Shown: positions 506 to 15,720, counted from the first letter of the stretch. The stretch: 64,000 nucleotides of DNA from Candidatus Latescibacterota bacterium (GCA_965242865.1 CBDETK010000013.1:2912001-2976000), one strand, 5' to 3'. Translations and numbers: made by a program. The notes: generated from the sequence alone by a model not told the origin.

Positions 506-612
506 CCTCCTTGGTTAAGGGTCCTATCTTCTGAGTTAAAACAAATGCTTCTGTTGCGCGACCTGATGGCCGCTACTGCCCTCGGGCAACGACCTCCTTT
601 CTTGGTTGTAAT

Positions 613-2145
613 CTACGGGAGTGTTTGCAAGTGCGCGATGCGGCTCTGCGCCGCGGCCAGCGCCTTGTCGTCGCCGCGCCAGTGCCGGACAAAGGCCCCG
701 TAGGCCAGGTGCGCGGCCGCGACCGCGCCTTGTTGCTCGTAGGCTTGGCCCAGCGCGTAGTGGGAGCGCGCATGCGTGGAATCGCGCCGCACGACCTCCT
801 CAAACTGGGCGATGGCCTCGGCCAAGGACTCGCGCCGGGCCAAGGCCATGCCCAACCCATAGTACGCGTCGCCCAGCTCGGCGTTGCAAGCAAGGGCAGC
901 TCGATAGGCGTCAATGGCTTTTGCCAAATCGCCCCGCAGGGCATGGACATTGCCCAAGGCATTGTGCGCCTTGGCGTAGCAGGCGTCGAGGGCGAGGGCG
1001 CGAGCAAACGCTGCCTCGGCCTCGGCCCAACGCTGCTTTTGGGCGTGGGCAAAGCCCATGGTAAAATGCGCTTCGGGCGCATGCCGGCCCCGCGGTTCGT
1101 GCGCCGCGATGGTGCCAGCCAAGTGCGCGGCGCGCTCCACATCACCCTGCCGCAGGTGGAGCTGGACCACCGCGGCCAGCGCGTCAACGTGCTCGGGCGC
1201 GCGGCTGAGAACCTCCTGATACGTGTTCAGCGCGTCCGCGTAGTGCCCCAAGCGCGTCTGCGCCCGGCCCAGCTCCAACCGCGCTTCCACATTGCCGGGA
1301 TCGCGCACCAACGCCTTTTCTAAGGCCTCCTCTCGATCCGCCAAGCCGAGCAAACCCTCTAGACGCACGAGCATGGCTTCGGCTTCGTCGTAGCGGCCTT
1401 GGGCCGAATACAAATTCGCCAAGTCGTGGTACGCCGCGCCGTAGTGGGCGTCGAGGGCCACGGCCCGGTTGAGCACCTGCGCGGCTGCTTCGTACCGCTT
1501 TTCGTTTAAGTAGAGCCGACCCAAGTCCCGCCAGATTTCTTTGCGCTCCGGCGCCAACTCGGCCGCTTCCACCAACACCTCTTCCGCACGCACACTGCGG
1601 CCCTGTTGGCTGTAGAGCAAGGCTAGGGCCTGCCTCGCCTCCACATCTTGGGGGGCGATGTACAGTGCCTTCAGCAGGGCCTCTTCGGCGCGCTCGTATT
1701 GCCCTTGCTCCTTTGCCAGAAAGGCCAACAGGCGATAGGAGCTAGGCGATTGGGGATCGAAACGCAACGCGGCTTCTACGGCCGCTACGGCCTGCGGGTA
1801 GCGGCCGGCTTCGAGGTGGGCAATGGCCAAGTTGTGATAGGAGGGGATATACGTCGAATCCAGCGCAATGGCCCGGGCAAAGTGCGGGGCCGCGGCCGCG
1901 CTCTTGCGCTGCAAATGCGCCAAGCCGAGGTAAAAGTGCGCGTCGCGGGACAGGGAATCGCGGCGGATGGCCTCTTGATATACGGCCGCGGCTTGGTCGT
2001 AGCGGCCCTGATCCAAATACGTCCTCCCCACCGCGAGCAAAGGCTCGCCTGCTGGCGGCTCTTGCCGCGCTTGGCCGCATCCCCCCAGCGAGAGAAAGGC
2101 GAGGAGGGCGAGGAGGGCGAGGCGATCCACGGGCGAAAAGGACAT
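613..2145 (-). CDS. Tetratricopeptide-repeat lipoprotein
   Basis: Lipobox-like LGGC after a hydrophobic stretch; many TPR units (AHFYLG, AYHDLA, AHNALG, AYYGLG). Confidence 0.9.
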   Translation of the reverse strand: MSFSPVDRLALLALLAFLSLGGCGQARQEPPAGEPLLAVGRTYLDQGRYDQAAAVYQEAIRRDSLSRDAHFYLGLAHLQRKSAAAAPHFARAIALDSTYIPSYHNLAIAHLEAGRYPQAVAAVEAALRFDPQSPSSYRLLAFLAKEQGQYERAEEALLKALYIAPQDVEARQALALLYSQQGRSVRAEEVLVEAAELAPERKEIWRDLGRLYLNEKRYEAAAQVLNRAVALDAHYGAAYHDLANLYSAQGRYDEAEAMLVRLEGLLGLADREEALEKALVRDPGNVEARLELGRAQTRLGHYADALNTYQEVLSRAPEHVDALAAVVQLHLRQGDVERAAHLAGTIAAHEPRGRHAPEAHFTMGFAHAQKQRWAEAEAAFARALALDACYAKAHNALGNVHALRGDLAKAIDAYRAALACNAELGDAYYGLGMALARRESLAEAIAQFEEVVRRDSTHARSHYALGQAYEQQGAVAAAHLAYGAFVRHWRGDDKALAAAQSRIAHLQTLP

Positions 2146-2216
2146 GTCGTAGATTCTTTTTAGAGTGGCGAGTGCTTGTCGGTATTATATAGTATGTACC
2201 TACCAACTAAGTCAAG

Positions 2217-2334
2217 AAAGAAAGTGCCTCGCAATTTGGCGTTTTTCGGCCGGGCGGCGGTCCGTTTCCTCGCGCTCTTTTTTCCGTTCGCAAGCTGCGA
2301 GCCCCCGCTCCCGCAACCCCAAGCGGACGCCGCG
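2217..2334 (+). repeat. Left copy of 118-bp direct repeat bounding the island; encodes a 38-aa stub of the beta-helix gene (GTG 2224 to TAG 2340)
   Basis: Identical to 12223-12340 except one G/A difference (tttttcggcc vs tttttcagcc). Confidence 0.95.
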
Positions 2335-2434
2335 ACATAGGGCGTCAGCGGCACTGCGGGCGACGATCCCATCGAGGTCGCCGTGCTAGTTTGGCGTCCG
2401 CCTTCCGGGTGCTCAGAGGCGCGGAGGTCTGCGA

Positions 2435-3535
2435 CTATCGTTCCCGCTTTCTATAGAGCTCTTCCATGGCGTCTTGCAACAAGCGGTTGAAGTTGATTCG
2501 GCGATTGTAGCACCGGCGATAGGCATCCACTCGGCTCAACGTCTCTTGGTAATAGCTCGGCACCGCGTACAGCCGCACGATTTCAGTGGCCATCTCTTCT
2601 GTGTTGCCGACTAGCCGTATGGAGCGCATCCGGTCGAATTCGGCTAGTTCCCGGATGCCAATCGAATCGAAGGATACTACCGGCTTGCCGCAATGGATTG
2701 CTTCCAAGGCAAAAATGCCAAACGCTTCCACGTCGGCTGTCGAGACGACGCAAAGACACGCCGCGAACTGTTTTCTCACCTCGGCGTCAGACAGGGATGT
2801 TCGGTTGAAGTGAATTGGCCGTCCAGCCCGTTCATTAGCTTGTACGAGTTCCCTAGTGTATGCGGGATACAGTGAGTCGTCCAGGCCTCCAGAGACGCGG
2901 ACCCCGATGCCATAGCCGTGCAAGCGGCGGGCTAACTGTATAACCGCGTCGAGGTTTTTGCGCGGTGCTATTCTCGTCGGGCAAAAGGCGAAGGGACGCG
3001 CTGTGGCTCCAGCCGCCGACTTCCATATTCCATGGCGGATTTCGTCGTCGGCCTTGGTGGGCAGGTTGTAGCGCACCCAGATCGAATCCAATCCAAAGTG
3101 GCGTCGCAAGAATTGCTGGAAAAACCGGGCAAAGACCACGACGCCTAGTAGGTTGACCTCGTGTAGTAGGCGCAGGCAGCGGGCCTTTGTTTCCGATGGT
3201 AGTTCCACGACCGTCTCGAATGGAACCAGCACCGTATCGGCGGCTACCTGTTCCTTGGCGACCAGTTGCAACGCGGCGAACCCACAGGCAAATACGATGT
3301 CGGCGGCTTGGAGGTCTCGACGTAGCTCTACCGGCAGTTCGCATTCTTGTGGACTGAATCGGTAGTCGAGCTTGCCGCGAATCAGGTCCGCATTGGTTAT
3401 ACAGCGCACCGCTTGGTGCCGCTTTCGCACATAGTCGTCTATCGACCGAATGACTTTCTCCGCACCCCCTTCCAGTTCGTACAGATAGGGGGCGATCAGT
3501 ACCGCTTTGTCTTTATCGGGTGCGATCGATTCCAT
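2435..3535 (-). CDS. Glycosyltransferase, GT4 (GT-B) family
   Basis: GGAEKV near the N-terminus, RIAPRKN, and the GT4 signature EAFGIFALEAIHCGKPVV. Confidence 0.88.
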   Translation of the reverse strand: MESIAPDKDKAVLIAPYLYELEGGAEKVIRSIDDYVRKRHQAVRCITNADLIRGKLDYRFSPQECELPVELRRDLQAADIVFACGFAALQLVAKEQVAADTVLVPFETVVELPSETKARCLRLLHEVNLLGVVVFARFFQQFLRRHFGLDSIWVRYNLPTKADDEIRHGIWKSAAGATARPFAFCPTRIAPRKNLDAVIQLARRLHGYGIGVRVSGGLDDSLYPAYTRELVQANERAGRPIHFNRTSLSDAEVRKQFAACLCVVSTADVEAFGIFALEAIHCGKPVVSFDSIGIRELAEFDRMRSIRLVGNTEEMATEIVRLYAVPSYYQETLSRVDAYRRCYNRRINFNRLLQDAMEELYRKRER

Positions 3536-3539
3536 CGGA

Positions 3540-4193
3540 CTAAGGCTCCAAGTTAGAATCGGTTAGTGCGTCCAAATGGGCGCGATAGGCCCAGCCTTTA
3601 AGCACACCGCGCAATCCACCGGCTTCGTCATGTAGTTCGATTTGGCTGACGGCCCCGTTGGGAAAGTCAGCGGCCAACAGGGCTGCCAGATCGGCTTGCG
3701 GGCACAAGTCTTTGATCGTGGTGTTGAATAGCCCGCCGTGGCCGACAATCACGATGTGTTCGCCCCAGCGGTTGGCTACCGCCTGCCGCAGTCCCGCCTG
3801 CATCCGGCCCCACAGCGCGTGGTAATTTTCGCCATTGGGGAAGGCGGCGGCGTGGTCGCCGGCATACCACGCTGCGAAGATGCGGTCGTGGAGCGTCCAA
3901 GCGGCTTGGGTGGGCGGCTCTCGTTCCAAGCGGCCGACATCGACTTCGCGGAAGGCTTCGACGATATGGACCGGGAATTGGTGTGGACCGGCAATGCACA
4001 CGGCGGTTTGCTGCGCCCGCTGCAAGGGCGAGGCATAGACCGCCGCGATGGGGAACGACGCGAGGTACGCGGCCGTGCAGTGCGCCTGTCGCCAGCCTAA
4101 CGGCGTGAGCGGATAGTCCACGATGCGATGGGAAAACTCGCCGGTCTGATTAGCGCGGTTCTCTCCGTGACGCACCAGCCACACCGTGTTCAC
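3540..4193 (-). CDS. Histidine phosphatase (phosphoglycerate mutase-like) family protein
   Basis: LVRHGEN, ASPLQRAQQTA, FPNGE and VGHGG motifs. Confidence 0.9.
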   Translation of the reverse strand: MNTVWLVRHGENRANQTGEFSHRIVDYPLTPLGWRQAHCTAAYLASFPIAAVYASPLQRAQQTAVCIAGPHQFPVHIVEAFREVDVGRLEREPPTQAAWTLHDRIFAAWYAGDHAAAFPNGENYHALWGRMQAGLRQAVANRWGEHIVIVGHGGLFNTTIKDLCPQADLAALLAADFPNGAVSQIELHDEAGGLRGVLKGWAYRAHLDALTDSNLEP

Positions 4194-5254
4194 CGACTCA
4201 GTGCCTTCAAGACGCGCCCGAGCAGCGGCTGCTCCTCGGCGGCCAGCGCGGCGAGCGTCCCGCTAGCCCGCGTGAGAGTGTCGGGCCGCTGATGCGTTTT
4301 CCAACGCAACAGCACTAGACGCAGCCTGCGTACCTTTCGCTCGATTGCACCAAAGCGCATCCCAAGCTGCTCCTCTGGATCGAGATAGCCCTGCGCTTCC
4401 ATGTACTGCAACCGCGCCTGCATACACGTTTTGTGTTCCCATAGGATGCGCCACGAGATGTCGCGGTAGGCGGCCGGATTTTTCAGTTCGCGCTGGAGAA
4501 ACCGATAGATGGCCGTGCCCCAAAAGCCGCCCTCTCGCGGCACGGCTAATAGCCGGTAGCGCTGCGACGTGTCGGACGCAGACAGATAGTCGGTCAACTG
4601 TTCGGCCACCGCACAGGGGTCAAAGGGATATGGCGAGTCGGGCAAATACTTGTAGAGGAACACTCGGGGCCGGTCTTCCATCGCTTGAAGAAACCACGGC
4701 GGCAGCGACCGGCCGGCTTGCAACGCCTGCTGAATGTGGCCTTCGCGGGTGAACGAACTCGCTTGTTCCACCACGTCAAACGGCATGTGAGAGATTGCGT
4801 AGCCGCCCTGTTCGTCGAAGCCGGACAGCACCAACGTGCGCTCCTCGGTGTCATAGCCAGACACGAGTACTTCGTGGATGAAGTGGTGCCGCTGATAGTG
4901 CGGTCGGTTGGGCAGATAGAAGAAGTCGACATCCGTCTGGACGTAGTAGCCCCGGTCAATACACGAGACGATCCACGGGACGAAATCAGCGGTGCCCAGC
5001 CCTAACACTTGGCGGTCGATGGTCTGGACGTCGAGGAAGGGGCAGGTGGAAAAATACACATGGCGCACCTCATGGCGCGTGCTAAAGGGTTGGGTGTAGA
5101 ACTTCAATTCTTCGCCGGGGAAATTGAACAGTTGAATGTGAGTGCTGTATAGCCACGGCAGGTAGGCATCGGCTTGGGCGAGGATGGACAGCGGATACGT
5201 ATTGAACAAATAGGAACAGATTGGCGGCGAGTGCTGTGGTAGGGTGCGTTGCAT
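4190..5254 (-). CDS. BtrH-like (papain/NlpC-fold) protein, putative ACP-dependent acyltransferase
   Basis: GYYVQTDVDFFYLP...Y..HHFIHEVLVSGYD matches the BtrH_N pattern (D.yyLp...H..H..l.GYD); lies directly downstream of the ACP gene. Confidence 0.6.
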   Translation of the reverse strand: MQRTLPQHSPPICSYLFNTYPLSILAQADAYLPWLYSTHIQLFNFPGEELKFYTQPFSTRHEVRHVYFSTCPFLDVQTIDRQVLGLGTADFVPWIVSCIDRGYYVQTDVDFFYLPNRPHYQRHHFIHEVLVSGYDTEERTLVLSGFDEQGGYAISHMPFDVVEQASSFTREGHIQQALQAGRSLPPWFLQAMEDRPRVFLYKYLPDSPYPFDPCAVAEQLTDYLSASDTSQRYRLLAVPREGGFWGTAIYRFLQRELKNPAAYRDISWRILWEHKTCMQARLQYMEAQGYLDPEEQLGMRFGAIERKVRRLRLVLLRWKTHQRPDTLTRASGTLAALAAEEQPLLGRVLKALSR

Positions 5255-5262
5255 GATGGAAC

Positions 5263-5520
5263 TTACACCCTCTGCTTGCCGACGACGTATTCAGCCAGCG
5301 TCTCTACCGAATCAAACAATTCGGCGGTCAGTTCGTCGTCTTCGACCGTGATGCCAAATGCCTCCTCTATGACGGAGACGATCTCTAAAGTGGCCATTGA
5401 ATCGAGGTCCATGCCTCCACCGAACAGCGTCTCGTCGTCGGGAATTTCCGCTGGATCCACGTCCAATCCAAGCGCGGCGACGATCAGGCACTTGATCTGC
5501 GCTTTCAGGCACCCGGACAC
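5263..5520 (-). CDS. Acyl carrier protein
   Basis: 85 aa, acidic; LFGGGMDLDSM phosphopantetheine serine motif and IEEAFGI; GAGGAG 8 nt upstream of GTG. Confidence 0.92.
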   Translation of the reverse strand: MSGCLKAQIKCLIVAALGLDVDPAEIPDDETLFGGGMDLDSMATLEIVSVIEEAFGITVEDDELTAELFDSVETLAEYVVGKQRV

Positions 5521-7397
5521 GATGCGGGCTCCTCGGCAAAGTGGTTGACCACCGTATCCACCATCCGCTGCTGGCCTTTCTCCGACAGAATCGACACTGC
5601 TGGTAGGCCAAAGCGATCTTCGAGCCGACCCAAGGTACGTTTGATGTGCTCCGCAGTCATCGGACGTGGCTTGATGAATGTGCGCCCGTAAGCGGCGCGG
5701 ATGTGCTTTTCTTGGTCGCTCATGGCCAATAGCAGCGTCGGTGCTTTGGCGAGGGCGCGCAGAGCGTCAATGGTATCTTGGATATACTCGTCGGCGTCAA
5801 CGCTGTTGACCACGAGGATACACGCATCCGGCTTCGTGCCTAGCAGAAAGGCTGTCGAAGTCAGCGAATGGGTGCGGTGTTCATGCACATCGTAGGGAAT
5901 GGTGCCCGACTGCGAGCCGACCAAGATGAGATCGGGTTTCTGCTGCTGGCTAAGCTGCCGCAGTTTGTAATCCAGATAGGGCACGTAGTATTGCAAGGGC
6001 ATTTCCACATTGGAGGCATAGCCCATAGGAAAAGCGAGGTCCATGCCAAACAGCACCGCATGGTGCTCGGTGCCGATTTGACCGACTCGATAGCCGAGGC
6101 GCAAAAGGCGGCGACGCAGGATCAGTTGCAGGGTGAATTTGCCCTGTTGGGAACTAGTGCCAAACACGCCGAGCACCGGCACATCAACCGGACTGTAAGC
6201 CGGCTCAGTTTGGAGGGCTTGCCGTACGTCATCGGACGAGACCGAGGGATACGTCAAGTGCAGTCCCTTCTTGTCGGCGAGTTCGTACAAATCGCCATAC
6301 TTGTCTTGGGGCACGGCGAGGAAACTGAAAACGTGGCAGTCGCGCTTTAGTGCGGTCTCAATGGCCGTGCGTAGCATGTCTTTCTTGTCAATCCGCCCTA
6401 ACTGATCGACATAGCCGAGGATGAGCGTATCCGCCTTCTTGAGGGCCGCAGCAAGCCGGGGCCGGATGCGTACCCCGATGGAAGGTAAGCCAAGCACCTT
6501 GCCCGCGTCCTTGGCCACGAGCCCCTTGCCCACCGGATCGGCGATACCCGCGATCTCGAAAGCGAGTAAATCCCGCGCTCGGACCAAGGAGTGCATCTCT
6601 TTGTTGAACGGGTAGAGTGCCGCCTTCTGAATCCAGGAAAAACTTGAAGGGTTAGCAGGAGACTCCGGCGTGACCGCTGGGCGCGTACTTTGGAGCAGTT
6701 CCGGCGTCCCTTTCAACGCATTGGTCTGCAGTACCTCGCGCACCTGTTCCAATGATGCCCCCGGATGCGCTTGGCGAATCAAGGCAACCATGCCGGTGAC
6801 GTGCGGCGCGGCAAAGCTGGTGCCCGACACCATCAGATACGACGGATCGGTCCAGCAGACCCGCTGCATATCACCCCGGGCGACGCATTCAATCGCGTGG
6901 CCCGGACGATAGTAATACCCATAGCGTCCGCGGACCTTGCCTCCTGCAACGCCGATAACGTCGGACAAGACCGCAGGATAGCTTTCTCGCCCGTCGTTGT
7001 GCTCGGCAGCGACGAGAATAACCCCGGCTCCACGAGCTCGGCAACAGACCTCGGCGAGCCGGTCGCGGAAGGCAACGTCCGTCGTGCCTAAGCTGAGATT
7101 GACCACATCCATCCGCTGCTCAATCGCCCAGCGGATCGCCGCTAGCAGAGCCGAACCATCGGCGGTCAGGGATTCGTCGAAAATGCGGACATCGTACAGA
7201 GTCGCGGTCGGCGCGATTTGGCGGATGATGCCCGCGCAAGCCGTGCCGTGCCCCGCACCAATAGCTGCAGGCGGAGACTCCGAGTCCAAGAGGACCTCGT
7301 GAACTGCGCCGATCTTTTCGTGCGTCGGGTCAACACCCGAGTCAATAACGGCGACACGGACGGGATGAACTGCTTTGGCTAGGTTCGTCAGGAGCAT
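5505..7397 (-). CDS. Subtilisin-like S8 peptidase fused to a DUF1611/TIGR04066-like P-loop domain
   Basis: Catalytic triad motifs VAVIDSG, GHGTACAG, SGTSFAAPHV; no signal peptide. C-terminal VPVLGVFGTSSQQGKF...GYRVGQIGTE...PDLILVGSQSG. Confidence 0.85.
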   Translation of the reverse strand: MLLTNLAKAVHPVRVAVIDSGVDPTHEKIGAVHEVLLDSESPPAAIGAGHGTACAGIIRQIAPTATLYDVRIFDESLTADGSALLAAIRWAIEQRMDVVNLSLGTTDVAFRDRLAEVCCRARGAGVILVAAEHNDGRESYPAVLSDVIGVAGGKVRGRYGYYYRPGHAIECVARGDMQRVCWTDPSYLMVSGTSFAAPHVTGMVALIRQAHPGASLEQVREVLQTNALKGTPELLQSTRPAVTPESPANPSSFSWIQKAALYPFNKEMHSLVRARDLLAFEIAGIADPVGKGLVAKDAGKVLGLPSIGVRIRPRLAAALKKADTLILGYVDQLGRIDKKDMLRTAIETALKRDCHVFSFLAVPQDKYGDLYELADKKGLHLTYPSVSSDDVRQALQTEPAYSPVDVPVLGVFGTSSQQGKFTLQLILRRRLLRLGYRVGQIGTEHHAVLFGMDLAFPMGYASNVEMPLQYYVPYLDYKLRQLSQQQKPDLILVGSQSGTIPYDVHEHRTHSLTSTAFLLGTKPDACILVVNSVDADEYIQDTIDALRALAKAPTLLLAMSDQEKHIRAAYGRTFIKPRPMTAEHIKRTLGRLEDRFGLPAVSILSEKGQQRMVDTVVNHFAEEPASCPGA

Positions 7398-7678
7398 CGT
7401 CTGATTAAGCTTAGGACCGCCGAATCTTCATCTAGTGCGATGTCCAAGGCTTCCGGTCCGAGCAAAAATGTCGAATCGATAAACCATTCAACCGGCTGAC
7501 CATACAGAGCGGCCAACCGGAGCAACTCCAGCGTCGAGACGGCTCGCTCACCCGATTCAATGCGGCTGATCGCCGATTGGTCGCGGCCAATTTCCGCACT
7601 GGCGGTCGCTTGGCTGATATGCTGACTTCTACGGGCCAAACGCAAGCGGCGGGCGAGCTCTTCAGGGGTTATGGGCAT
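7388..7678 (-). CDS. XRE-family helix-turn-helix regulator
   Basis: RLRLARR..ISQ...A.EIG.DQSAISRIESGER; stop overlaps the S8 gene start. Confidence 0.88.
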   Translation of the reverse strand: MPITPEELARRLRLARRSQHISQATASAEIGRDQSAISRIESGERAVSTLELLRLAALYGQPVEWFIDSTFLLGPEALDIALDEDSAVLSLIRRCS

Positions 7679-7744
7679 AATAGATGCGCCGGATAATTGG
7701 GTGGATGTAGCATCATTTTGTTATGCGTAATACGGCAGGTTAGC

Positions 7745-8611
7745 TTACTCTCGATTAAAGTAGAAGGCGAGTTCCGGCTGTTGGCGGGCAGATATGGCAA
7801 TCGTTGAATCCATGCGGATCGCCGTCGCTAAATCCTCGCTGGCCAACGTCATCTCGCCCTGCCGGGCGCGGATGAGTGCTCTGTAATACCACGCAACGCC
7901 GGTTTCGTTGTCGATCGATATAGCTCGATTGAGCGCGGCCAGCCCTTCTTCTAGGCGACCTGTACTTCTAAAGAGAATGCTTCGCTTGATCCACGACGCG
8001 AGGTGCTCAGGATCGTGCTGCAAGGCGATCTCAAGTGCTGCTTCAGCAGCCGCATAGTCTCTTTCTTGGAGATGAAGCGAACCAATAAGTCCCCAGAAAT
8101 ACGTGAAATGCGCGTCGGTAGAGTCGGCGACTAAGCAGGCTTTGTAAACATGTACTGCTTCTTCTACTTGTCGTAAATCGCGCAGAAGATCGCCCGTTCT
8201 CTGGCATAATCCCACGTTTTTGGGATCTAAGCGGAACGCAGCCGAGTAAAACTCAAGGGCTTGTATTGAATCCTCCATGGCTAGACAGGCATCGCCCTTG
8301 CTCTTCCACAGCCAAGGATCGTCGTGGTCGTACTGTATAGCAGTATTTAGGGCATCGAGCGCACGATCATATTCACCCAGCATTATATAACACTTTGCAA
8401 GCACATTCCAAGCGCGGGGCGAATCACCCTCTAAGGCAAGGAATTGTTCATAAGCGCGAAAGGCCATTCGGTGTTCATTGATCGCCATAAGTCGATCGCC
8501 ATGCCGCAAGTAGGTAGCCCCATCCGATAGATCATACCTCACCATTAGATATAACAGTGAAAGGATGGTTATGGAATTGATCAAAACGGCCGAGAGGACC
8601 CATTTTTTCAT
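7745..8611 (-). CDS. Membrane-anchored TPR protein
   Basis: One N-terminal hydrophobic helix, then TPR units (AWNVLA, LWKSKG, AWYYRA); ATGA overlap with the upstream CPBP gene. Confidence 0.85.
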   Translation of the reverse strand: MKKWVLSAVLINSITILSLLYLMVRYDLSDGATYLRHGDRLMAINEHRMAFRAYEQFLALEGDSPRAWNVLAKCYIMLGEYDRALDALNTAIQYDHDDPWLWKSKGDACLAMEDSIQALEFYSAAFRLDPKNVGLCQRTGDLLRDLRQVEEAVHVYKACLVADSTDAHFTYFWGLIGSLHLQERDYAAAEAALEIALQHDPEHLASWIKRSILFRSTGRLEEGLAALNRAISIDNETGVAWYYRALIRARQGEMTLASEDLATAIRMDSTIAISARQQPELAFYFNRE

Positions 8612-9351
8612 AGCATAGACTCCAACATATAAACCCTATATAAGAAGACGAAGGCTGGGACCATATTGGCAACGCCGTGTATCACAATACAGGCTCCAAT
8701 AGAACGCGATCGTTCATAGTAGAGAACAAGCACGAGACCTAATCCCAAATGGGGGAGGAGGTCCAAAAATTTCTCGTCCATATTGTAGTGGCATAATGCA
8801 AACAGTATGACATTTGCCACAACAGCCCACATAAAAGGTAAATGCTTTCTGAGATAGGGATACAGAATACCTCTAAATAGCCACTCCTCCACTAAGGGAA
8901 TGACAACTACACCTTGTAATATCCTTATAACCGATAAATCGGGTAGGTACATTACCGGCGGAATATAAGCAACCGATTTTGATAGATTCGCTAGGACCAT
9001 AATTGACACGACTAAGGAGGCTGCTAGCCAGATCTCCTTCCCGAAACCAACCAAAGATAGCCTTAGCCGATTAGGCACGGTTCCTACAATGAGACGAAAA
9101 CAGACAAGCATTAAAATCATCGCGACCGCATGGGAACCAAAAAAGCGAAGAAGGACGATTTTCATATCCCGAAACAGCAACGACTCTTCGGCCCAGTCGG
9201 CCCAGTTATCGACATAAGCGTTCCTGAGCGCAATAAAAAAGAATAAGATGGCGAACTGTAGGGTGACCAAGATGAAGTTCCATGGACACTCCCATTCTTG
9301 TCTTCGCATGGTGTCCCAAGTATTGAGCACAGTGCTATAGACCGATTTCAT
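8608..9351 (-). CDS. CPBP/Abi (type II CAAX) intramembrane protease
   Basis: PLVEEWLFRG, LFALCH and IVIHGVAN motifs; multi-pass membrane protein. Confidence 0.9.
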   Translation of the reverse strand: MKSVYSTVLNTWDTMRRQEWECPWNFILVTLQFAILFFFIALRNAYVDNWADWAEESLLFRDMKIVLLRFFGSHAVAMILMLVCFRLIVGTVPNRLRLSLVGFGKEIWLAASLVVSIMVLANLSKSVAYIPPVMYLPDLSVIRILQGVVVIPLVEEWLFRGILYPYLRKHLPFMWAVVANVILFALCHYNMDEKFLDLLPHLGLGLVLVLYYERSRSIGACIVIHGVANMVPAFVFLYRVYMLESML

Positions 9352-9548
9352 ATCCGCGTACCAAGCGTAGGCGATACCAAATCCAAGGACATGCTGTGAA
9401 GTAGCCCACTTTTTCGTACATCAGATCAATAGCGGAGTCAACAATGGTAATGTTGACTAGATGTCCAGAAGCATCAAACGGTTCTGATTGGTTGATTCGA
9501 CCTATGGGTTCCCTAGGGATATAAGCATCTATGGATGTACAGCGGTGC

Positions 9549-9605
9549 TACGTGTGATCCGTAAAACTTGTCACTTTATCAAGCGAACTATTCACGGATC
9601 ACGTA
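9549..9605 (-). terminator. Stem-loop just 3' of the precursor-like gene
   Basis: GTGATCCGT (9554-9562) pairs perfectly with ACGGATCAC (9594-9602), extended by tacg/cgta; no clear U-tract. Confidence 0.5.
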
Positions 9606-9606
9606 C

Positions 9607-9987
9607 TTACCTGGGCCTAGTATTGTCTTGCCTCGCCTCTTGCGTTCCAGAACCTTGAGACGCCAGAGAATCCAGTACTGCCTTAGAGCTTGAAACAGAC
9701 AGGTGAGGTCCAAGATTTGGATCATGAGTCACGCTTAGATTGAAACCTCCTCCGAAGCCAGCCGATATGCTACCAGTTGCGGAGCTATCGGAACCTACGG
9801 TTAATTGAGCACCTGCCCCAGGAGTACTCAAACCAACGCCACCAGAGGACGACCAGTGTTGGTGAGTTCTGGAAGGATCATGGCAACTAAGGCAAGCATT
9901 GGAAGGATCGACCTGAAACGTTTCGTCATGGTAGGCTTGAATAGCCTTGCGATCCATCGTCGAGTACGGTTTGATGAGTTTTCTCAT
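9607..9987 (-). CDS. Putative bacteriocin/RiPP precursor peptide
   Basis: AAGGAGG 5 nt before ATG 9987. Leader MRKLIKPYSTMDRKAIQAY, then CLSCH and a Gly/Ser-rich body; flanked by two CPBP genes. Confidence 0.65.
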   Translation of the reverse strand: MRKLIKPYSTMDRKAIQAYHDETFQVDPSNACLSCHDPSRTHQHWSSSGGVGLSTPGAGAQLTVGSDSSATGSISAGFGGGFNLSVTHDPNLGPHLSVSSSKAVLDSLASQGSGTQEARQDNTRPR

Positions 9988-10042
9988 CATTTCCTCCTTG
10001 TGTTGATGAGTTAATTGTGGCAGCGATTCTTATATCCCTAGT

Positions 10043-10810
10043 TCACCCATAGGTCATAGGTCGAAGGATATTTGTCAAAAATCCTATAACGAAGTTACCT
10101 ACTGCATGAATAATTACTAACGGAATTATAGATCGTAATCTTTCTAAAAGGAAACACTGAATGACACCAAACGGGAAAATGGCAATAGCCACTATGTAAT
10201 TATCGTAGTATAACTGTGGATGCCAAATAGTAAATAAAAGAGAAGATACAGTCATACTTGGTATAATTCCGAAGTATCTTCTAAAGATATTGTAGCAAAT
10301 TCCTCTGAAAAACAACTCTTCTGGAATAGGCGGAAGCACCGTAAAAAGAAATATAAATATTAATATCATCTGAAAATGGGGAGACTTCCCTCCTGAAAAA
10401 GTAAGAGCCCCATAAGGTTTTCCTGTTAGTGTAAACATTCCGAAGTAGTAAGCACATCCTAAAGCGCATCCAATAACGATGGCTCCACCGTACCAGTATT
10501 TGGAAAAATTGAAATGCCAAATATAGTTGTAAGTCGGCAATCTATCTGTACGTACAAAGTACAGTAATATCGAGAGAAATAGAATATAGCTTATAATAAA
10601 CTGAGTAAATAGACCAGCAAACAAAGCCCATTCTATACTCCATGAATTGCCGAAATTCGATAGACGGATATTGGTAAAATATTTAGCCTCTATCCATATT
10701 TTAAAGCAATAACTTGCCAAGTGGGGAACTACCATTACCAGAAGAATTCCCCAGCTTATTTTTCCGACAGAAGATATAGTGTGATCTTTAGGTTTATTGA
10801 GTTGATACAT
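10043..10810 (-). CDS. CPBP/Abi (type II CAAX) intramembrane protease
   Basis: PIPEELFFRG, LLFTIWH and IIHAVGN motifs; strongly AT-rich. Confidence 0.9.
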   Translation of the reverse strand: MYQLNKPKDHTISSVGKISWGILLVMVVPHLASYCFKIWIEAKYFTNIRLSNFGNSWSIEWALFAGLFTQFIISYILFLSILLYFVRTDRLPTYNYIWHFNFSKYWYGGAIVIGCALGCAYYFGMFTLTGKPYGALTFSGGKSPHFQMILIFIFLFTVLPPIPEELFFRGICYNIFRRYFGIIPSMTVSSLLFTIWHPQLYYDNYIVAIAIFPFGVIQCFLLERLRSIIPLVIIHAVGNFVIGFLTNILRPMTYG

Positions 10811-10826
10811 TGACTTAAATCCTTTG

Positions 10827-10892
10827 TTAGATACTTGCCATTCTATCGTAGAGTTGAACGTATATACCTCCTCGTATCAATAGTTCCTCATG
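10827..10892 (-). pseudogene. C-terminal remnant of an ABC exporter ATP-binding protein
   Basis: Hand translation HEELLIRGGIYVQLYDRMASI* matches the typical ABC-exporter tail G(T/S)HEELL.. GG.Y..LY. Confidence 0.7.
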
Positions 10893-11844
10893 TACATACA
10901 GCTACATACAGCCGCGCTAGCTGCCCAATCTCGATCTTGGGCAGGTCGGTTTCCTTAACCATAATTCGTGCTTGCCAGCCATCGGTCTGAGCCACTTCGA
11001 GCACCGTTTCCCCCGCTTGGAGACGATCTCCCACCCGTTGCTCTAGTTGCCCGGTCAGCACCGTGCCCGCGGCCGGTGGCCAGAGCGTGTTCTTGGCCAG
11101 CCGGTTTTCTAACCGCTGGTACTCCTGCTCGATCTTCTCGCGCTGTTTCTCCAAGGTGTGGAGTTCGGCGGCTCGTCCTTGTACGGCCTGAAGCCGCTGC
11201 TGGCTCTGCTCCAACTCGGCTTCGGCATCTCTCAGCCAAGCGTTGCCCAGCCGTACCGGCAGAAGCTGCTCCAACGGTTGACGGACAAAGCTGGTCGGCA
11301 ACAAGGCGGCTGTTGAGTAGATGGTTTGTTCGGCCACGACCTGCTCCAATTGGATGCGCCTGCGCTCTACTTCCCGCTGGGCGTGGACGACCTCGGCTTG
11401 GCGAATGTTGCGCTCCTGCGCCATCTGCTGCTGAATGGCTCGCTGCTGGCTCCGGTTGACTCCGAGATCCTTTTCGGCCTGCCGGAGTTGGATGCGCCAG
11501 TCGGTATCGTCGAGTGTAACCAGCGGTTGCCCCTTTTCTACCTGTTGCCCCTGTCGGACGTGCATCTGCTGGATAATCCCCGCAATCTCGGCCTTGACCC
11601 GACGCCGATGGCGCGGCTCAACGACGCCCGTGCCCTCTACAGTCATATCCATGCTGAAATACCAACTCAGGACGCCAGCGAGTGCCAGCAAGCACCCCAC
11701 CAACCCCAGAATCACCAAGAGAAACGAGCGCACGAACCGAAAGCCCGGCCCGTGAAATTCTTCCCCTATACTCAGGGCATTACTACGGCTATCGTGCCGT
11801 TCGTTTTGCCCCAGTACTTGAGATTGAGCGGTTAGAGCCGGCAT
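10888..11844 (-). pseudogene. HlyD-family membrane fusion protein, 3'-truncated
   Basis: TM helix, VEGTGVVEP, lipoyl-like halves (VRQGQQVEKGQPL, VGDRLQAGETV) and coiled coil. Ends abruptly at IGQLARLYVAVCT*, inside the beta-barrel domain. Confidence 0.8.
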
Positions 11845-12222
11845 CTTCTAACTCCATGCGCTAAAAGGAAAGTCCCCGAGCACAAGCGGCTCAAGGTTGA
11901 TTTTGTATGGGGAAGGCCCGCACCGCGCAACCACGCATACCGGCGCACCCATAGCGGCTCCCAAGGCATACGGCACGGCGGCAATAGAGCCGTACAGACC
12001 GCTGCCCACTCGGCACCGAATGGCTCGCCAAGCGACAACAAAAGGCTTGTTAAGAGAAAATTTAGTGCGCCCTGCCGCAAGCCGCGTCCCTCCCATGGCG
12101 ATTGCGGCCTGCGACCCGTTTGCCTAATGTGAATATTCTTTAGCTGAATGACCATGAGTAGGAATGAGACCATACCTCCTAATGGTGCGACAGCACGGGT
12201 GCGCCGCTAGTGAACCACTATC

Positions 12223-12340
12223 AAAGAAAGTGCCTCGCAATTTGGCGTTTTTCAGCCGGGCGGCGGTCCGTTTCCTCGCGCTCTTTTTTCCGTTCGCAAG
12301 CTGCGAGCCCCCGCTCCCGCAACCCCAAGCGGACGCCGCG
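12223..12340 (+). repeat. Right copy of 118-bp direct repeat
   Basis: 117/118 identical to 2217-2334; forms the 5' end of the intact downstream gene. Confidence 0.95.
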
Positions 12341-13402
12341 TACCACGTCTATCCGGGCGACAGCATCCAAGCGGCCCTCGAAGCGGCCGCCCGCGACCCA
12401 ACCCACAAGACCGTCAAGGTTCACGCGGGGACCTATCGGCCACAACGGCCCGGCCAAGCGCTGATCTTCTTCGCGGCCCGCCACGATGGCATCGCGCTCG
12501 AAGCGGTGGGGCGCGTGGTGCTGACGGCCGCCCATGCCGAGCGCGCCGACCCCAAGGCGGCCAGTTACCCGGCCCTCGTCAACCACGTGGTCTTTTTTGG
12601 CGATGGCATCTCCCGGCGCACCGTCCTACGCGGTTTCACCATCACCGGCGCCAACAACTTTGCCAACCGCAACGAAGGCCCTGACCCCATGCAGCCGGAC
12701 TCCTCCAACGGCGTGCGCTGGGAAAAGGGACTGTTCTTTTACGCCGATGGCGGCGGCATCAAGGTATTTGGCCGCTCCTATCCAACCCTCACCGATCTAG
12801 CAATCCACGACAACTACGCCAGCCCCTGCGGCGGCGGCATCTCCATTGAGCATCGGGGGTTCGACGCCGAGGCCGTGCTGATTGAGAACTCGGTCTTCCG
12901 CAACAACAGCTGCCAAATCACCGGCGCGGCCGTCGATGTGCTGCCCGGCAGCGCGGCCGTGCTCGACAACTGCCTCTTCGTCGGCAATGTCGCCAATCTC
13001 GGCCCTGACTACGTGGGCCGCGGCGGCCGCGAATACAACAAGATGCACGGCTCTGGGGCGTTGACGGTCTTTCCCGGGGCGCACGTCGAAGTGCGCGACT
13101 GCACCTTTACGGACAACTGGAACGGCGTGGACGACAAGGGGCGCGGCAGTGCGTACCGCAATACCATTTTCTGGATGAACGTGCGCGCTGGCGGCATGGC
13201 CCTCGGCCGCCGCTACGAGGTCGATCTGCTCGACAGCCGCCGCTTCAGCGGCTGCTTCGTCCGCGGCCAGATTGACGACCTACGCGGCACCTTGGACCCG
13301 GAGCGCAATGTGCTCCAAGCACCCGACCCGCAATTCGACGAGCACTATCGGCCTCAAGCTCCGGCCTACGCCGGGGTAGGCTATCGGCCAGCAGGGGAGT
13401 AG
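12230..13402 (+). CDS. Right-handed parallel beta-helix lipoprotein
   Basis: Lipobox-like FASC; SIQAALEAA..TVKVHAGTY, LRGFTITGA, repeated GGGI / F.NN / GGA turns. Probable GTG start at 12230 (ORF track starts 12164). Confidence 0.8.
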   Translation: MPRNLAFFSRAAVRFLALFFPFASCEPPLPQPQADAAYHVYPGDSIQAALEAAARDPTHKTVKVHAGTYRPQRPGQALIFFAARHDGIALEAVGRVVLTAAHAERADPKAASYPALVNHVVFFGDGISRRTVLRGFTITGANNFANRNEGPDPMQPDSSNGVRWEKGLFFYADGGGIKVFGRSYPTLTDLAIHDNYASPCGGGISIEHRGFDAEAVLIENSVFRNNSCQITGAAVDVLPGSAAVLDNCLFVGNVANLGPDYVGRGGREYNKMHGSGALTVFPGAHVEVRDCTFTDNWNGVDDKGRGSAYRNTIFWMNVRAGGMALGRRYEVDLLDSRRFSGCFVRGQIDDLRGTLDPERNVLQAPDPQFDEHYRPQAPAYAGVGYRPAGE

Positions 13403-15712: not shown

Positions 15713-15720
15713 TCCGTCCA

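What the first reader, a model, noticed from the sequence alone, without database searches (positions are those of the whole stretch)
2217..12340. 10-kb island bounded by a 118-bp duplication of a host gene's 5' end, with no recombinase
Seen: 2217-2334 and 12223-12340 match at 117/118 nt. The left copy sits behind the intergenic region shared with the divergent TPR gene but stops after 38 codons. The right copy starts the intact beta-helix gene behind island DNA. No integrase, transposase or tRNA is present. Inference: the repeat is far longer than a transposon target duplication, which fits single-crossover integration of a circular intermediate or a relic att site. Near-identity implies a recent event, and the island could loop out again by recombination. 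It also appears to separate the beta-helix/CRTAC1 genes from their native promoter.
Basis: partly seen in the sequence, partly recalled or inferred. Interest (0 to 1): 0.7.

Follow-up and report, generated by a model that had tools for sequence, protein, structure and literature searches.

The report
Recombinase-free island with 118-bp target duplication
A 10-kb peptide-processing gene cluster with no mobility gene of its own has been inserted into the start of a host gene, copying 118 bases of that gene to both sides, and relatives carry the same cluster at three other places, so it moves by a route that is still unknown.

Summary
2217-2334 and 12223-12340 match at 117/118, and the genome holds only these two copies. 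They bound 9,888 bp of inserted DNA. The two closest congeners checked (G046, G045) have the empty site with exactly one 118-nt copy, so this is a precise target duplication made from the recipient's own sequence. It is recent: 1 difference between the copies against 11-12 to G046.

The island is a decaying peptide-maturation/export cluster. No integrase, transposase or resolvase family was found in 63 ORFs, and no tRNA lies nearby. Related copies (79-86% nt) sit at three other sites in congeners. All three sites are empty in this genome, and two carry short or diverged junction repeats (16 nt; 31 nt).

The right end of the island still carries the junction of one earlier site, including the 5' end of a NUDIX gene. 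The DNA therefore moved with its old flanks, without defined ends.

My best reading is recombinase-independent (illegitimate or replicative) insertion of foreign DNA; the repeats could now support loop-out. The closest known case is the E. coli H47 microcin island.

A circular intermediate, excision and the mechanism itself are not shown. Only k=31 contigs were available, and they cannot resolve a 118-nt repeat.

The parts
613..2145 (-). TPR-repeat gene (510 aa), the divergent left neighbour of the target gene
   Evidence: Pfam TPR families. It is adjacent to the beta-helix gene in 9 of 11 congener loci.
2146..2216 (+). Native intergenic region of the target gene, with a promoter-like site at 2159-2188 and the upstream ATG at 2194
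   Evidence: Consensus scan. It aligns with the congeners' intergenic regions.
2217..2334 (+). Left copy of the 118-bp target duplication. It is a truncated 5' end of the beta-helix lipoprotein gene, and the frame stops at TAG 2335-2337.
2335..2434 (.). 100-nt island left-end spacer of unclear origin. Its last ~16 nt resemble the left junction of 'site C'.
   Evidence: Alignment. The shuffle test was not significant against two of three targets.
2435..3535 (-). Group-1 (GT4-like) glycosyltransferase, 366 aa
   Evidence: Pfam Glycos_transf_1, E 1.8e-12.
3540..4193 (-). Histidine phosphatase, 217 aa
   Evidence: Pfam His_Phos_1, E 7e-42.
4190..5254 (-). BtrH_N-like protein, 354 aa. The relatives' orthologue also has DUF4872 and Peptidase_C39_2.
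   Evidence: Pfam, E 1.3e-5, below the family cut-off. Relative L033:14977-16086.
5263..5520 (-). Carrier protein, 85 aa (phosphopantetheine attachment site)
   Evidence: Pfam PP-binding, E 1.1e-9.
5505..7397 (-). Subtilase fused to DUF1611 (630 aa), the hallmark peptide-maturation protein of the cluster
   Evidence: Pfam Peptidase_S8 and DUF1611. NCBIfam QhpE-like and TIGR04066 'peptide maturation system protein', both below their cut-offs.
7388..7678 (-). XRE-type HTH regulator, 96 aa
   Evidence: Pfam HTH_3.
7745..8611 (-). TPR protein, 288 aa
   Evidence: Pfam.
8608..9351 (-). CPBP (Rce1-like) intramembrane protease, 247 aa
   Evidence: Pfam Rce1-like, E 9e-20.
9352..10903 (-). Low-GC (36-49%) segment that stands where relatives have an HTH gene, a CPBP gene, a 571-aa ABC exporter and the 3' part of the HlyD gene. 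It holds a 127-aa ORF (9607-9990) between 31-nt inverted repeats (9499-9529 / 10025-10055) and a second CPBP gene (10043-10810).
   Evidence: It has no match in the relatives' clusters.
10888..11844 (-). HlyD-family adaptor, truncated (318 aa against 422-425 aa in relatives)
   Evidence: Pfam HlyD_3. Homology to relatives starts at 10904.
11850..12035 (-). Conserved leader region ahead of the HlyD gene. G000 has lost ~280 nt that relatives and strain X8 carry between here and the promoter-like box.
   Evidence: Alignment. X8 shows '280 letters between' 12034 and 12039. No codon-phase bias.
12039..12208 (+). Carried-over junction of an earlier insertion site ('site C'). It includes a diverged 5' end of a NUDIX gene (ATG 12154 to 12208).
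   Evidence: 78% identity over 176 nt to L035 17327-17499, which runs into the host NUDIX gene. 21/22 match to G000's own NUDIX gene. Scores of 93, 53 and 23 against null maxima of 13-14.
12209..12222 (.). 14-nt filler of unknown origin at the right junction. Together with T12208 it forms a small palindrome (5-bp stem, 3-nt loop).
   Evidence: Read. It is not aligned to any site-C sequence.
12223..12340 (+). Right copy of the 118-bp target duplication, continuous with the intact gene
12230..13402 (+). Beta-helix protein gene (390 aa from the in-frame GTG), with a probable lipoprotein signal peptide inside the repeat. This is the target gene.
   Evidence: Pfam Beta_helix. Orthologues at 86-90% aa identity in 10 congeners and 66% in an eleventh.
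13520..17691 (+). Two FG-GAP/UnbV_ASPIC genes downstream of the target gene
   Evidence: Pfam. Syntenic in congeners.

Best explanation
The 118-bp repeat is a target-site duplication. It was made when about 9.9 kb of DNA from another lineage was inserted into the first 141 nt of a beta-helix lipoprotein gene, without any site-specific recombinase.

The cargo is a peptide-maturation, export and immunity cluster. It encodes a subtilase-DUF1611 fusion, a carrier protein, a BtrH-like protein, a phosphatase, a glycosyltransferase, two CPBP proteases, an HTH regulator and an HlyD adaptor. In this genome it is decaying: the ABC exporter, the HlyD C-terminus and the small-ORF-bearing ~280-nt segment at the operon head are gone.

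The same cluster has been placed at four or more sites in the genus. The copy here came from a genome where it sat between an amidohydrolase gene and a NUDIX gene, because it still carries that junction at its right end. It therefore moves as an arbitrary DNA segment with old flanks attached, not as an element with defined ends.

Inferred mechanism: a linear or single-stranded copy was joined at two nearby points of the target in 'ends-in' order, or a replication fork switched template and returned 118 nt behind its point of departure. Either way, the stretch between the two joints was copied to both sides. Only such duplicating events leave the target gene whole, so they are the ones that persist.

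Shown: the insertion, the exact duplication, the absence of a recombinase gene, the occupancy of several sites, and the carried-over flank.

Inferred: the origin from another lineage and the joining mechanism.

The near-identical repeats can now support deletion (loop-out) by homologous or RecA-independent repeat recombination, which would restore the ancestral locus exactly. That step was not observed.
For: 1. Precise duplication of recipient sequence. G046 and G045 have one 118-nt copy, and their left and right flank matches overlap by exactly 118 nt. The G000 copies differ from each other at 1 of 118 positions, but from G046 at 11 and 12 and from G045 at 22 and 23.

2. No recombinase. 11 + 52 ORFs against Pfam and 13 against NCBIfam gave none. 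39 ORFs from five relatives' clusters gave none. The genome has only 3 Phage_integrase hits, all more than 1.4 Mb away, no Resolvase and no Ku.

3. Several sites. Collinear copies at 79-86% nt lie at site A (G005, G013, G002), site B (G014) and site C (G014, G045, G046, with a remnant in G019). The flanks of all three sites are adjacent in G000.

4. Junction repeats elsewhere. A perfect 16-nt repeat lies at both junctions of L034 (score 32 against null maximum 29). A 31-nt repeat, 24/31 identical, lies at both junctions of L032 (27 against 26). Six never-filled C sites hold one copy of it.

5. Carried-over flank. Window 12039-12208 aligns at 78% with the right junction of site C and runs into the NUDIX coding sequence.

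6. Another-lineage origin. The island is 79-86% identical to sampled copies, whereas the flanks are 90-95% identical to G046. By my count from the alignment, the NUDIX fragment differs from G000's own NUDIX 5' end at about 5 of 35 positions plus a 3-nt indel.

7. The pattern recurs. A second island in G000 (17.3 kb, perfect 62-nt repeats, no recombinase among its ORFs of 110 aa or more) has a single-copy empty site in 15 of 30 congeners. The same hotspot shows 140-nt and 307-nt flank duplications in other species.

8. DNA uptake and recombination genes are present: ComEC 1, RecA 2.
Against: - No read-level evidence of how it integrated is available. Only k=31 contigs could be laid, and these cannot tell empty, filled or circular forms apart across a 118-nt repeat.
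- The donor sequence is not sampled, so microhomology at the two joints cannot be checked. The right joint has 14 unexplained nucleotides.
- The carry-over at the left end is not significant (p 0.70, 0.28, 0.018).
- Junction repeats were not detectable at site B, nor in 3 of the 6 other relatives' junction pairs tested.
- Lower identity of the island could reflect faster evolution rather than transfer.
- Gene conversion could keep old repeats identical, so 'recent' is an inference.
- I know of no described bacterial case of a 10-kb insertion by template switching or ends-in illegitimate joining (from my own knowledge; one search was not aimed at this).
Confidence: 0.55

Rival explanations
1. 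Campbell-type cycle. A circular copy of the island carrying one 118-nt copy of the host gene's 5' end integrated by a single crossover into an empty site. The crossover could be RecA-dependent, or RecA-independent as in the E. coli H47 island. The island excises again through the repeats. The host fragment would have been picked up by an earlier imprecise excision at this same site in a conspecific cell.
For: - The structure (repeat, island, repeat, with a seamless right joint) is exactly what a single crossover gives.
- Repeat lengths seen in the genus (62, 118, 140, 169 and 307 nt) fit homology-driven crossovers better than a fixed stagger.
- The H47 island (148/144-bp repeats, no recombinase) excises and integrates in recA-deficient cells (PMC3191183, abstract and Results read).
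- G000 has two recA genes.
- Carrying old flanks is what imprecise excision would produce.
Against: - It needs a first, repeat-free illegitimate insertion at the same site anyway, so it adds steps.
- The island DNA and its NUDIX fragment are from another lineage, while both repeat copies are G000-type. The circle would therefore have to form after arrival.
- No circular or empty form could be looked for.
Confidence: 0.25
2. The 118 nt is the attachment site of a dedicated site-specific recombinase encoded elsewhere in the genome, which mobilises the island in trans.
For: - Long identical att repeats at gene ends are typical of integrase-borne islands.
- The genome has 3 tyrosine-recombinase genes.
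- The authors of the H47 study first proposed host-supplied recombinases (PMC3191183).
Against: - The cluster sits at four unrelated sites with unrelated junction repeats.
- Its ends are not constant: site A copies lack the glycosyltransferase and phosphatase genes and the site-C remnant.
- It carries old host flanks.
- Both repeat copies are the recipient's own sequence.
Confidence: 0.1
3. Two steps. The island first inserted at 2334/2335 and broke the gene. Later a wild-type fragment starting at position 2217 recombined homologously inside the gene and illegitimately with the island end (homology-facilitated illegitimate recombination), rebuilding an intact open reading frame.
For: - The right joint is seamless on the gene side but has a 14-nt filler on the island side. 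That is the asymmetry this process predicts.
- ComEC and RecA are present.
- Selection for an intact lipoprotein gene is plausible.
Against: - It needs two rare events.
- The rebuilt gene still lacks its native promoter region.
- No strain with the broken intermediate was seen; strain X8 has the same boundaries.
Confidence: 0.07
4. Assembly artefact of a metagenome-derived genome: two strains or loci joined wrongly at a shared 118-mer.
For: - The records closest to this genome are titled as metagenome-assembled genomes.
- Short-read graphs break at the repeat.
Against: - Depth is equal inside and outside the island in X5 (158.6, 165, 164.7).
- The same boundaries appear in a second, ~1% diverged strain (X8).
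- A contig from an independent study (X1) crosses the right junction.
- The 118-mer has only two copies.
Confidence: 0.03

Closest known systems
H47 genomic island of Escherichia coli (microcin H47 system). Read: PMC3191183 abstract, Results part 1 and passages; PMC5426353 abstract.
   Same: - A ~13-kb ribosomal-peptide production, export and immunity cluster.
- It is bounded by unusually long direct repeats (148 and 144 bp).
- It has no recombinase gene of its own.
- Empty sites with a single hybrid repeat exist in other strains.
- Excision and integration occur without RecA and without any of the 16 K12 site-specific recombinases.
- Its mechanism is still unknown.
   Different: - The H47 repeats are 76% identical and form a fixed attachment sequence found in many strains. 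Here the repeat is 99% identical, is a piece of the local target gene, and differs at each of four sites.
- This island carries flanks of a former site.
- Mobility was shown by experiment for H47 and is only inferred here.
cag pathogenicity island of Helicobacter pylori. Seen: one passage in PMC3266215. The lack of an integrase and the glr gene end as target are recalled, not read.
   Same: A large insertion flanked by direct repeats of host sequence, with no dedicated integrase (recalled), that is lost through its repeats (recalled).
   Different: - 40 kb with 31-bp repeats.
- One site only.
- The cargo is a secretion system.
Integrase-borne genomic islands and prophages at gene or tRNA ends (established knowledge)
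   Same: Direct repeats that duplicate the end of the target gene, so the gene stays whole, and reversible insertion.
   Different: Those encode a tyrosine or serine recombinase and have one conserved att core. Here there is no recombinase in 8 copies, no shared core, and the ends vary.
Transposon target-site duplications (established knowledge)
   Same: A duplication of target sequence made at insertion.
   Different: Transposase staggers are fixed and short (2-15 bp), and the element has defined terminal repeats and a transposase. Here the duplications are 16 to 300+ bp and variable, with no terminal repeats and no transposase.
Illegitimate integration of taken-up DNA at microhomologies. SPDIR: abstract start of bioRxiv 10.1101/2023.11.22.568220, seen in the listing. 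Homology-facilitated and double illegitimate recombination in Acinetobacter are recalled.
   Same: Recombinase-independent joining of ectopic DNA at the replication fork or at microhomologies, with variable outcomes.
   Different: The described events are short patches or rare laboratory events. A 10-kb natural insertion with a 118-bp duplication has not, to my knowledge, been described.

Membership tests
Integrase-mediated integrative element (att-flanked island) | Encodes, or lies beside, a tyrosine or serine recombinase | tested here: not met
   No such family in 63 island ORFs, in the NCBIfam scan or in 39 ORFs of five related copies. The genome has 3 Phage_integrase hits, all more than 1.4 Mb away, and 0 Resolvase hits.
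Integrase-mediated integrative element (att-flanked island) | The same att core at every insertion | tested here: not met
   Four sites have unrelated junction repeats.
Integrase-mediated integrative element (att-flanked island) | Direct repeats that duplicate the target gene end, with a single copy in empty sites | tested here: met
DDE or other transposon | Transposase gene, terminal inverted repeats, and a short target duplication of fixed length | tested here: not met
   No transposase. No inverted repeat at the island ends; the only inverted pair is internal, at 9499/10025. The duplication is 118 bp.
H47-type recombinase-less island bounded by long direct repeats | Long (over 100 bp) direct repeats, no recombinase gene, and empty sites in related genomes | tested here: met
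H47-type recombinase-less island bounded by long direct repeats | Excision and re-integration through the repeats, RecA-independent | not testable with these tools
   Only k=31 contigs were available, and the organism is known only from metagenome-assembled genomes.
H47-type recombinase-less island bounded by long direct repeats | A fixed attachment sequence shared between strains | tested here: not met
   The repeat is a piece of the local gene and differs between sites.
TIGR04066-type peptide maturation / RiPP-like export cluster (cargo) | A maturation protein together with a protease, an exporter and immunity-like genes | tested here: inconclusive
   TIGR04066 scores 121.7 bits against a cut-off of 200, and QhpE-like 146.5 against 165. 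Relatives have a HlyD adaptor and an ABC exporter. In G000 the exporter is missing and no precursor gene was identified.

The most novel reading that the evidence does not exclude
This Latescibacterota genus has a general insertion route that needs no recombinase. It places gene clusters and defence-type islands at new sites with long (60-300 bp) duplications of the target, most often at gene ends. The repeat-bounded products then spread and are lost by repeat recombination. That would be a mode of island mobility that needs no element-encoded enzyme.
Probability: 0.2. Interest if true: 0.8.

Novelty: new variant of a known kind. Interest (0 to 1): 0.6.

Why it matters
Genomic islands without any mobility gene are common, and how they reach new sites is largely unexplained. 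The one experimentally studied case with long repeats, the H47 island of E. coli, still has no mechanism.

This case gives a clean natural record of the event:
- an exact 118-bp duplication of the recipient's own sequence;
- an empty site in sister species;
- the same cluster at four sites;
- a fossil of the previous site inside the island.

Together these show that the DNA moved as an arbitrary fragment rather than as an element with ends. That narrows the mechanism to illegitimate or replicative joining, or to homology-driven re-insertion.

Long-read metagenomes of this abundant sponge-associated lineage could catch the intermediates. The insertion also shows how a gene can be cut off from its promoter yet kept intact.

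Tried and rejected
- Reads. Only Logan contigs (k=31) could be laid. Because the repeat is 118 nt, they cannot show an empty site, a circle or a tandem form. No 2334-to-12341 joint was listed, and that says nothing either way. The lower island depth in X8 (216 against 246 and 319) is a whole-contig mean and was not interpreted. X9 gave only low-depth fragments.
- JGI metagenome contigs. Patterns for the empty site and for the filled right junction both gave 0 matches, so that collection does not hold this lineage and the result is uninformative.
- Left-end carry-over from site C. The test was not significant.
- Long repeats around the relatives' copies. None of 40 nt or more in 7 loci. With a sensitive aligner, 4 of 6 relatives' junction pairs (L031, L033, L029, L030) did not exceed shuffles.
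- Other repeat-bounded regions of G000:
  - The 121-nt pair at C13:77853/88181 lies in a variable defence hotspot with no simple empty site.
  - The 217-nt pair at 3262873/3279282 is part of a larger 1.8-kb duplication.
  - The 47-nt pair at 4010049/4019997 lies inside a rearranged hotspot.
  - The 51-nt pair at 2429255/2452069 lies in paralogous fn3 genes.
  - None of these was counted as the same phenomenon.
- In-register flank identity as a filter for paralogues was not discriminating.
- Rfam. No family at E of 1 or less in or beside the island; the one hit, at 14739-14824, is far below threshold.
- The 82-aa and 113-aa ORFs at 11832-12173. No family and no codon-phase bias across 8 copies. 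The RNA consensus fold shows little covariation.
- NHEJ as the joining route. No Ku was found in a 93.6%-complete genome.
- Earlier notes of this scan. Nothing near the finding.
- A closer donor for the island. None above 85% aa identity among species-representative genomes.


Full report
OBSERVATION

The window holds one two-copy direct repeat of 118 nt, at 2217-2334 and 12223-12340, with start-to-start spacing of 10,006. I read both copies. They differ at one position, 2248 G against 12254 A. The alignment scores 231 against a maximum of 27 in 200 shuffles. The window lies on a 5.6-Mb contig of a 6.0-Mb, 13-contig assembly (G000), and that assembly holds only these two copies. Similarity ends abruptly on all four sides.

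THE INSERTED DNA

Between the copies lie 9,888 bp whose genes all read on the minus strand. From the right end they are:
- a truncated HlyD-family adaptor (10888-11844);
- a CPBP protease (10043-10810);
- a 127-aa ORF with no family (9607-9990);
- a second CPBP protease (8608-9351);
- a TPR protein;
- an XRE-type regulator;
- a 630-aa subtilase-DUF1611 fusion (5505-7397);
- an 85-aa carrier protein (5263-5520);
- a BtrH_N-like protein;
- a histidine phosphatase;
- a group-1 glycosyltransferase (2435-3535).

NCBIfam relates the fusion protein to QhpE-type proteases and to the TIGR04066 'peptide maturation system' family, both below their cut-offs.

None of the 11 large ORFs, the 52 further ORFs of 50 aa or more, or the 13 ORFs scanned with NCBIfam matches an integrase, transposase or resolvase family. 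The only tRNA in the window is 16 kb away. GC content is host-like (55-64%) except for 8.5-11 kb, where it falls to 36-49%.

IT IS AN INSERTION, AND THE REPEAT IS AN EXACT TARGET DUPLICATION

The beta-helix protein was found in 11 of 40 other genomes searched, all 11 within the genus (11 of 24 there). In 9 of these 11 loci the TPR gene (84-88% aa) lies directly upstream and divergent. One locus has a distant TPR gene (49%) and one has none. The alignment shows an uninterrupted intergenic region and gene start.

In the closest congener, G046, and in G045, the match to window 600-2334 and the match to window 12223 onwards overlap by exactly 118 nt. These genomes therefore have the empty site with a single copy.

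The G046 copy differs from the two G000 copies at 11 and 12 of 118 positions, and the G045 copy at 22 and 23, while the G000 copies differ from each other at 1. Both copies are thus the recipient's own version of the sequence. Barring gene conversion, the duplication is much younger than the split from G046.

NOT AN ASSEMBLY ARTEFACT

Nine public runs hold the stretch, and four were laid.
- Run X5: flank contigs (depth 158.6 and 164.7), the island contig 2305-12252 (depth 165) and a 118-nt contig equal to the repeat (depth 254.6) fit a two-copy repeat in one genome.
- Run X8: this holds a ~1% diverged strain with contigs ending at the same repeat boundaries. Its interior differs: 10893-11901 is replaced by 132 nt, and 280 extra nt sit at 12034/12039.
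- Run X1: this is a sponge metagenome from another study. Its contig 11028-12284 crosses the right junction. No listed X1 contig crosses the left junction.

These are k=31 contigs, so they cannot show empty or circular forms across a 118-nt repeat.

THE SAME CLUSTER AT OTHER SITES

Searching the island against the 31 genomes of the genus gave long collinear matches (79-86% nt) in G005, G014 (two contigs), G045, G002, G013 and G046. Most genomes also gave 64-66% matches to a paralogue of the fusion gene. Mapping the flanks of these copies onto G000 defines three sites:
- Site A: C13:191562/191650, between an LptD-like gene and a D-Tyr-tRNA deacylase gene. Filled in G005, G013 and G002.
- Site B: C13:2747335/2747556, between an aminotransferase gene and a TonB-receptor-like gene. 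Filled in G014.
- Site C: C13:3131668/3131676, between an amidohydrolase gene and a NUDIX gene. Filled in G014 and G045, with the right flank only in G046 and a 1.65-kb remnant in G019.

In G000 the flanks of all three sites are adjacent.

The relatives' copies hold a full-length HlyD adaptor (422-425 aa), a 571-aa ABC exporter, CPBP proteases, an HTH regulator and a BtrH_N/DUF4872 protein. None of the 39 ORFs scanned matches a recombinase family. Their extent differs between sites: site A copies lack the glycosyltransferase and phosphatase genes.

The G000 copy is decayed. It lacks the exporter, the last ~105 codons of the HlyD gene, and ~280 nt at the head of the operon, a stretch in which I read a small ORF in the relatives from the alignment. 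The 280 nt are present in relatives and in strain X8.

JUNCTION REPEATS AT THE OTHER SITES

No repeats of 40 nt or more flank the relatives' copies. A sensitive aligner finds two shorter ones:
- A perfect 16-nt repeat lies exactly at both junctions of the site-A copy in L034 (score 32 against null maximum 29).
- A 31-nt repeat, 24/31 identical, lies exactly at both junctions of the site-C copy in L032 (27 against 26).

Six never-filled site-C sequences hold one copy of that 31-mer, which spans the NUDIX start codon. The other four junction pairs did not exceed shuffles.

A FOSSIL OF THE PREVIOUS SITE

Window 12039-12208, just inside the right repeat, aligns at 78% over 176 nt with L035 17327-17499. 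From 17461 on, that locus is the host NUDIX gene, 95% identical to G000's. The best non-self match of this stretch in G000 is its own NUDIX gene, at 21/22. Scores are 93, 53 and 23 against null maxima of 13-14.

The island therefore arrived with the right junction of site C and about 35 nt of NUDIX coding sequence beyond the site-C repeat. A similar carry-over at the left end (2335-2434) is only suggestive (p 0.70, 0.28, 0.018). The site-B copy carries part of the same remnant.

By my count from the alignment, the NUDIX fragment differs from G000's own NUDIX 5' end at about 5 of 35 positions plus a 3-nt indel. The island is 14-21% diverged from all sampled copies, while the flanks are 5-10% diverged from G046. 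I infer that the DNA came from another, unsampled lineage of the genus. No closer donor exists among species representatives.

Site C is contiguous in 15 of 30 congeners, all at 85-88% identity. In the other 15 it is split, or only one half was found. That group includes all ten congeners that match G000's site-C flank at higher identity (88-94%), along with the five most distant at 76-81%. G000's own empty site C has an aberrant NUDIX start, so its lineage may have lost an older copy there. This last point is an inference.

MECHANISM

What can be excluded with fair confidence:
- An element-encoded recombinase.
- A fixed attachment site, because the four sites are unrelated and the ends are not constant.
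- A transposase-type stagger.
- Ku-dependent end joining, because no Ku was found in a 93.6%-complete genome.

The genome has only three tyrosine recombinase genes, all far away, and no resolvase. It has ComEC and two recA genes.

The single-step reading that fits everything is illegitimate insertion of a foreign fragment, with the two joints 118 nt apart in 'ends-in' order. The same product would arise if a replication fork copied the fragment and returned 118 nt behind its point of departure. In both cases the stretch between the joints ends up on both sides, made from the recipient's own sequence. Such events leave the target gene intact, which may explain why duplications rather than deletions are what is seen.

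The main rival is a Campbell-type single crossover of a circle that had picked up 118 nt of host DNA by imprecise excision. It fits the long and variable repeat lengths in the genus and the behaviour of the E. coli H47 island, but it needs an earlier repeat-free insertion at the same site. A dedicated recombinase acting in trans, a two-step break-and-repair route, and an assembly artefact are less likely.

CONSEQUENCES

The right copy keeps an in-frame GTG (12230) and the lipoprotein-type signal peptide. However, it now lies behind island DNA. The only promoter-like site found is at 2159-2188, ahead of the left copy, and none was found in 11700-12500. These are consensus scans, not evidence of function. 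Recombination between the copies would delete 10,006 bp and recreate the arrangement seen in G046.

THE PATTERN RECURS

A self-comparison of G000 lists about 100 nearby direct-repeat pairs, most of which were not examined.

One pair is a clean second case. Perfect 62-nt repeats at C13:2508388 and 2525726 bound 17.3 kb. The interval encodes a sigma-54 activator, a kinase-like protein, a helicase and a DUF2357 protein, and none of the ORFs of 110 aa or more matches a recombinase family. In 15 of 30 congeners the flank matches overlap by 53-63 nt, giving a single-copy empty site.

At the same hotspot:
- G019 has the island with a 307-nt flank duplication.
- G010, G004 and G002 have a 1.2-1.3-kb insert between 140-nt duplications of the 3' end of the neighbouring acetyltransferase gene.

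In G007 a 169-nt copy of an oppC-like gene's 3' end lies at the far side of a 13-kb island. Three other candidate pairs proved not to be simple cases.

COMPARISON WITH WHAT IS KNOWN

The closest described system is the H47 genomic island of E. coli. It is a 13-kb microcin production, export and immunity cluster between 148- and 144-bp imperfect repeats, with no recombinase. It excises and integrates in recA-deficient cells (PMC3191183: abstract, Results part 1 and passages read). None of the 16 K12 site-specific recombinases is needed (PMC5426353: abstract read). The cag island of H. pylori is flanked by 31-bp repeats (PMC3266215: one passage read).

The present case shares the kind (long repeats, no recombinase, peptide cargo, empty sites). 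It differs in three ways:
- The repeat is a near-perfect copy of the local target gene.
- Each site has its own repeat.
- The island carries the flank of its former site.

I therefore class it as a new variant of a known kind.

Two literature searches found no report of long target duplications for recombinase-free islands in this phylum. These were narrow word searches and do not show absence.

The records closest to this genome are titled Candidatus Latescibacterota metagenome-assembled genomes, and several runs holding the stretch are labelled sponge metagenome. Experiments in the native organism are therefore not at hand.

VERDICT

The 'att site or circular intermediate' part is not shown and is not the best fit. 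The mechanism remains inferred. Interest 0.6.

Noticed in passing
G000 C13:2508388-2525787 (outside the window; locus L041 1389-18788): A second recombinase-free island of 17.3 kb lies between perfect 62-nt direct repeats. It encodes a sigma-54 activator, a kinase-like protein, an AAA_11/12 helicase and a DUF2357 protein. 15 of 30 congeners have a single-copy empty site. G019 has the same island with a 307-nt flank duplication.
   Followed up: partly
Congener loci L048 (G010), L049 (G022), L051 (G043), at the same hotspot as L041: Small inserts of different content sit between ~140-nt duplications of the 3' end of the neighbouring acetyltransferase gene. The contents are a 337-aa ORF with no family, a DUF6338 gene, and an IS1-like gene with a VRR_NUC gene. 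No integrase was found.
   Followed up: partly
G007:C1:218912-234312: A 169-nt copy (92%) of the 3' end of an oppC-like permease gene lies ~13 kb beyond the gene, at the far side of an SNF2-helicase/methylase island. This is another long gene-end duplication around an island.
   Followed up: no
window 9499-10055: 31-nt inverted repeats (87% complementary) bracket a 127-aa ORF with no family. They lie in a low-GC (36-49%) 1.55-kb segment that replaces the ABC exporter region of the cluster. The segment is single-copy in the genome and was not found in congeners.
   Followed up: partly
window 11850-12035 (minus strand); paralogous stretch at G000 C13:2478054-2478366: A ~190-nt stretch ahead of the HlyD gene is conserved in all cluster copies. 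Most indels are multiples of three, but variable sites show no codon-phase bias (30/58, 29/57, 29/55) and the consensus fold shows little covariation. Whether it is a coding region, a leader or an RNA is unresolved.
   Followed up: partly
relatives' clusters, e.g. L032 ~14450-14480 and L033 ~5560-5580 (the ~280-nt segment missing from the window at 12034/12039): A homopolymer G/C run that varies in length between species (roughly 8 to 17) lies in the ~280-nt segment at the head of the operon, next to a small conserved ORF that I read from the alignment. It could be a slippage-prone tract.
   Followed up: no
G000 C13:3131668-3131676 ('site C') and its counterparts in congeners: In at least five congeners (G046, G007, G005, G043, G004) the amidohydrolase and NUDIX halves of this site lie far apart or on opposite strands. 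The island site therefore coincides with rearrangement breakpoints. G000's NUDIX start is 6 nt shorter than the genus consensus and diverged from it.
   Followed up: partly
window 2326-2346 and 12208-12220: Small inverted repeats sit on both junctions. A 6-bp stem joins the end of the left repeat copy to the first island bases, and a 5-bp stem with a 3-nt loop lies inside the filler at the right junction. These could be chance, or traces of fold-back or template switching.
   Followed up: no
G000 C13:4026574-4027344 and 4284548-4285324: The genome has two full-length recA genes, both scoring about 437-439 bits.
   Followed up: no
window 12154-12210: The imported NUDIX start codon opens an 18-codon frame that stops at TAG 12208-12210. 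A different ATG (12164) is in frame with the beta-helix gene and would add 22 residues ahead of the GTG at 12230. Which start is used is unknown.
   Followed up: no
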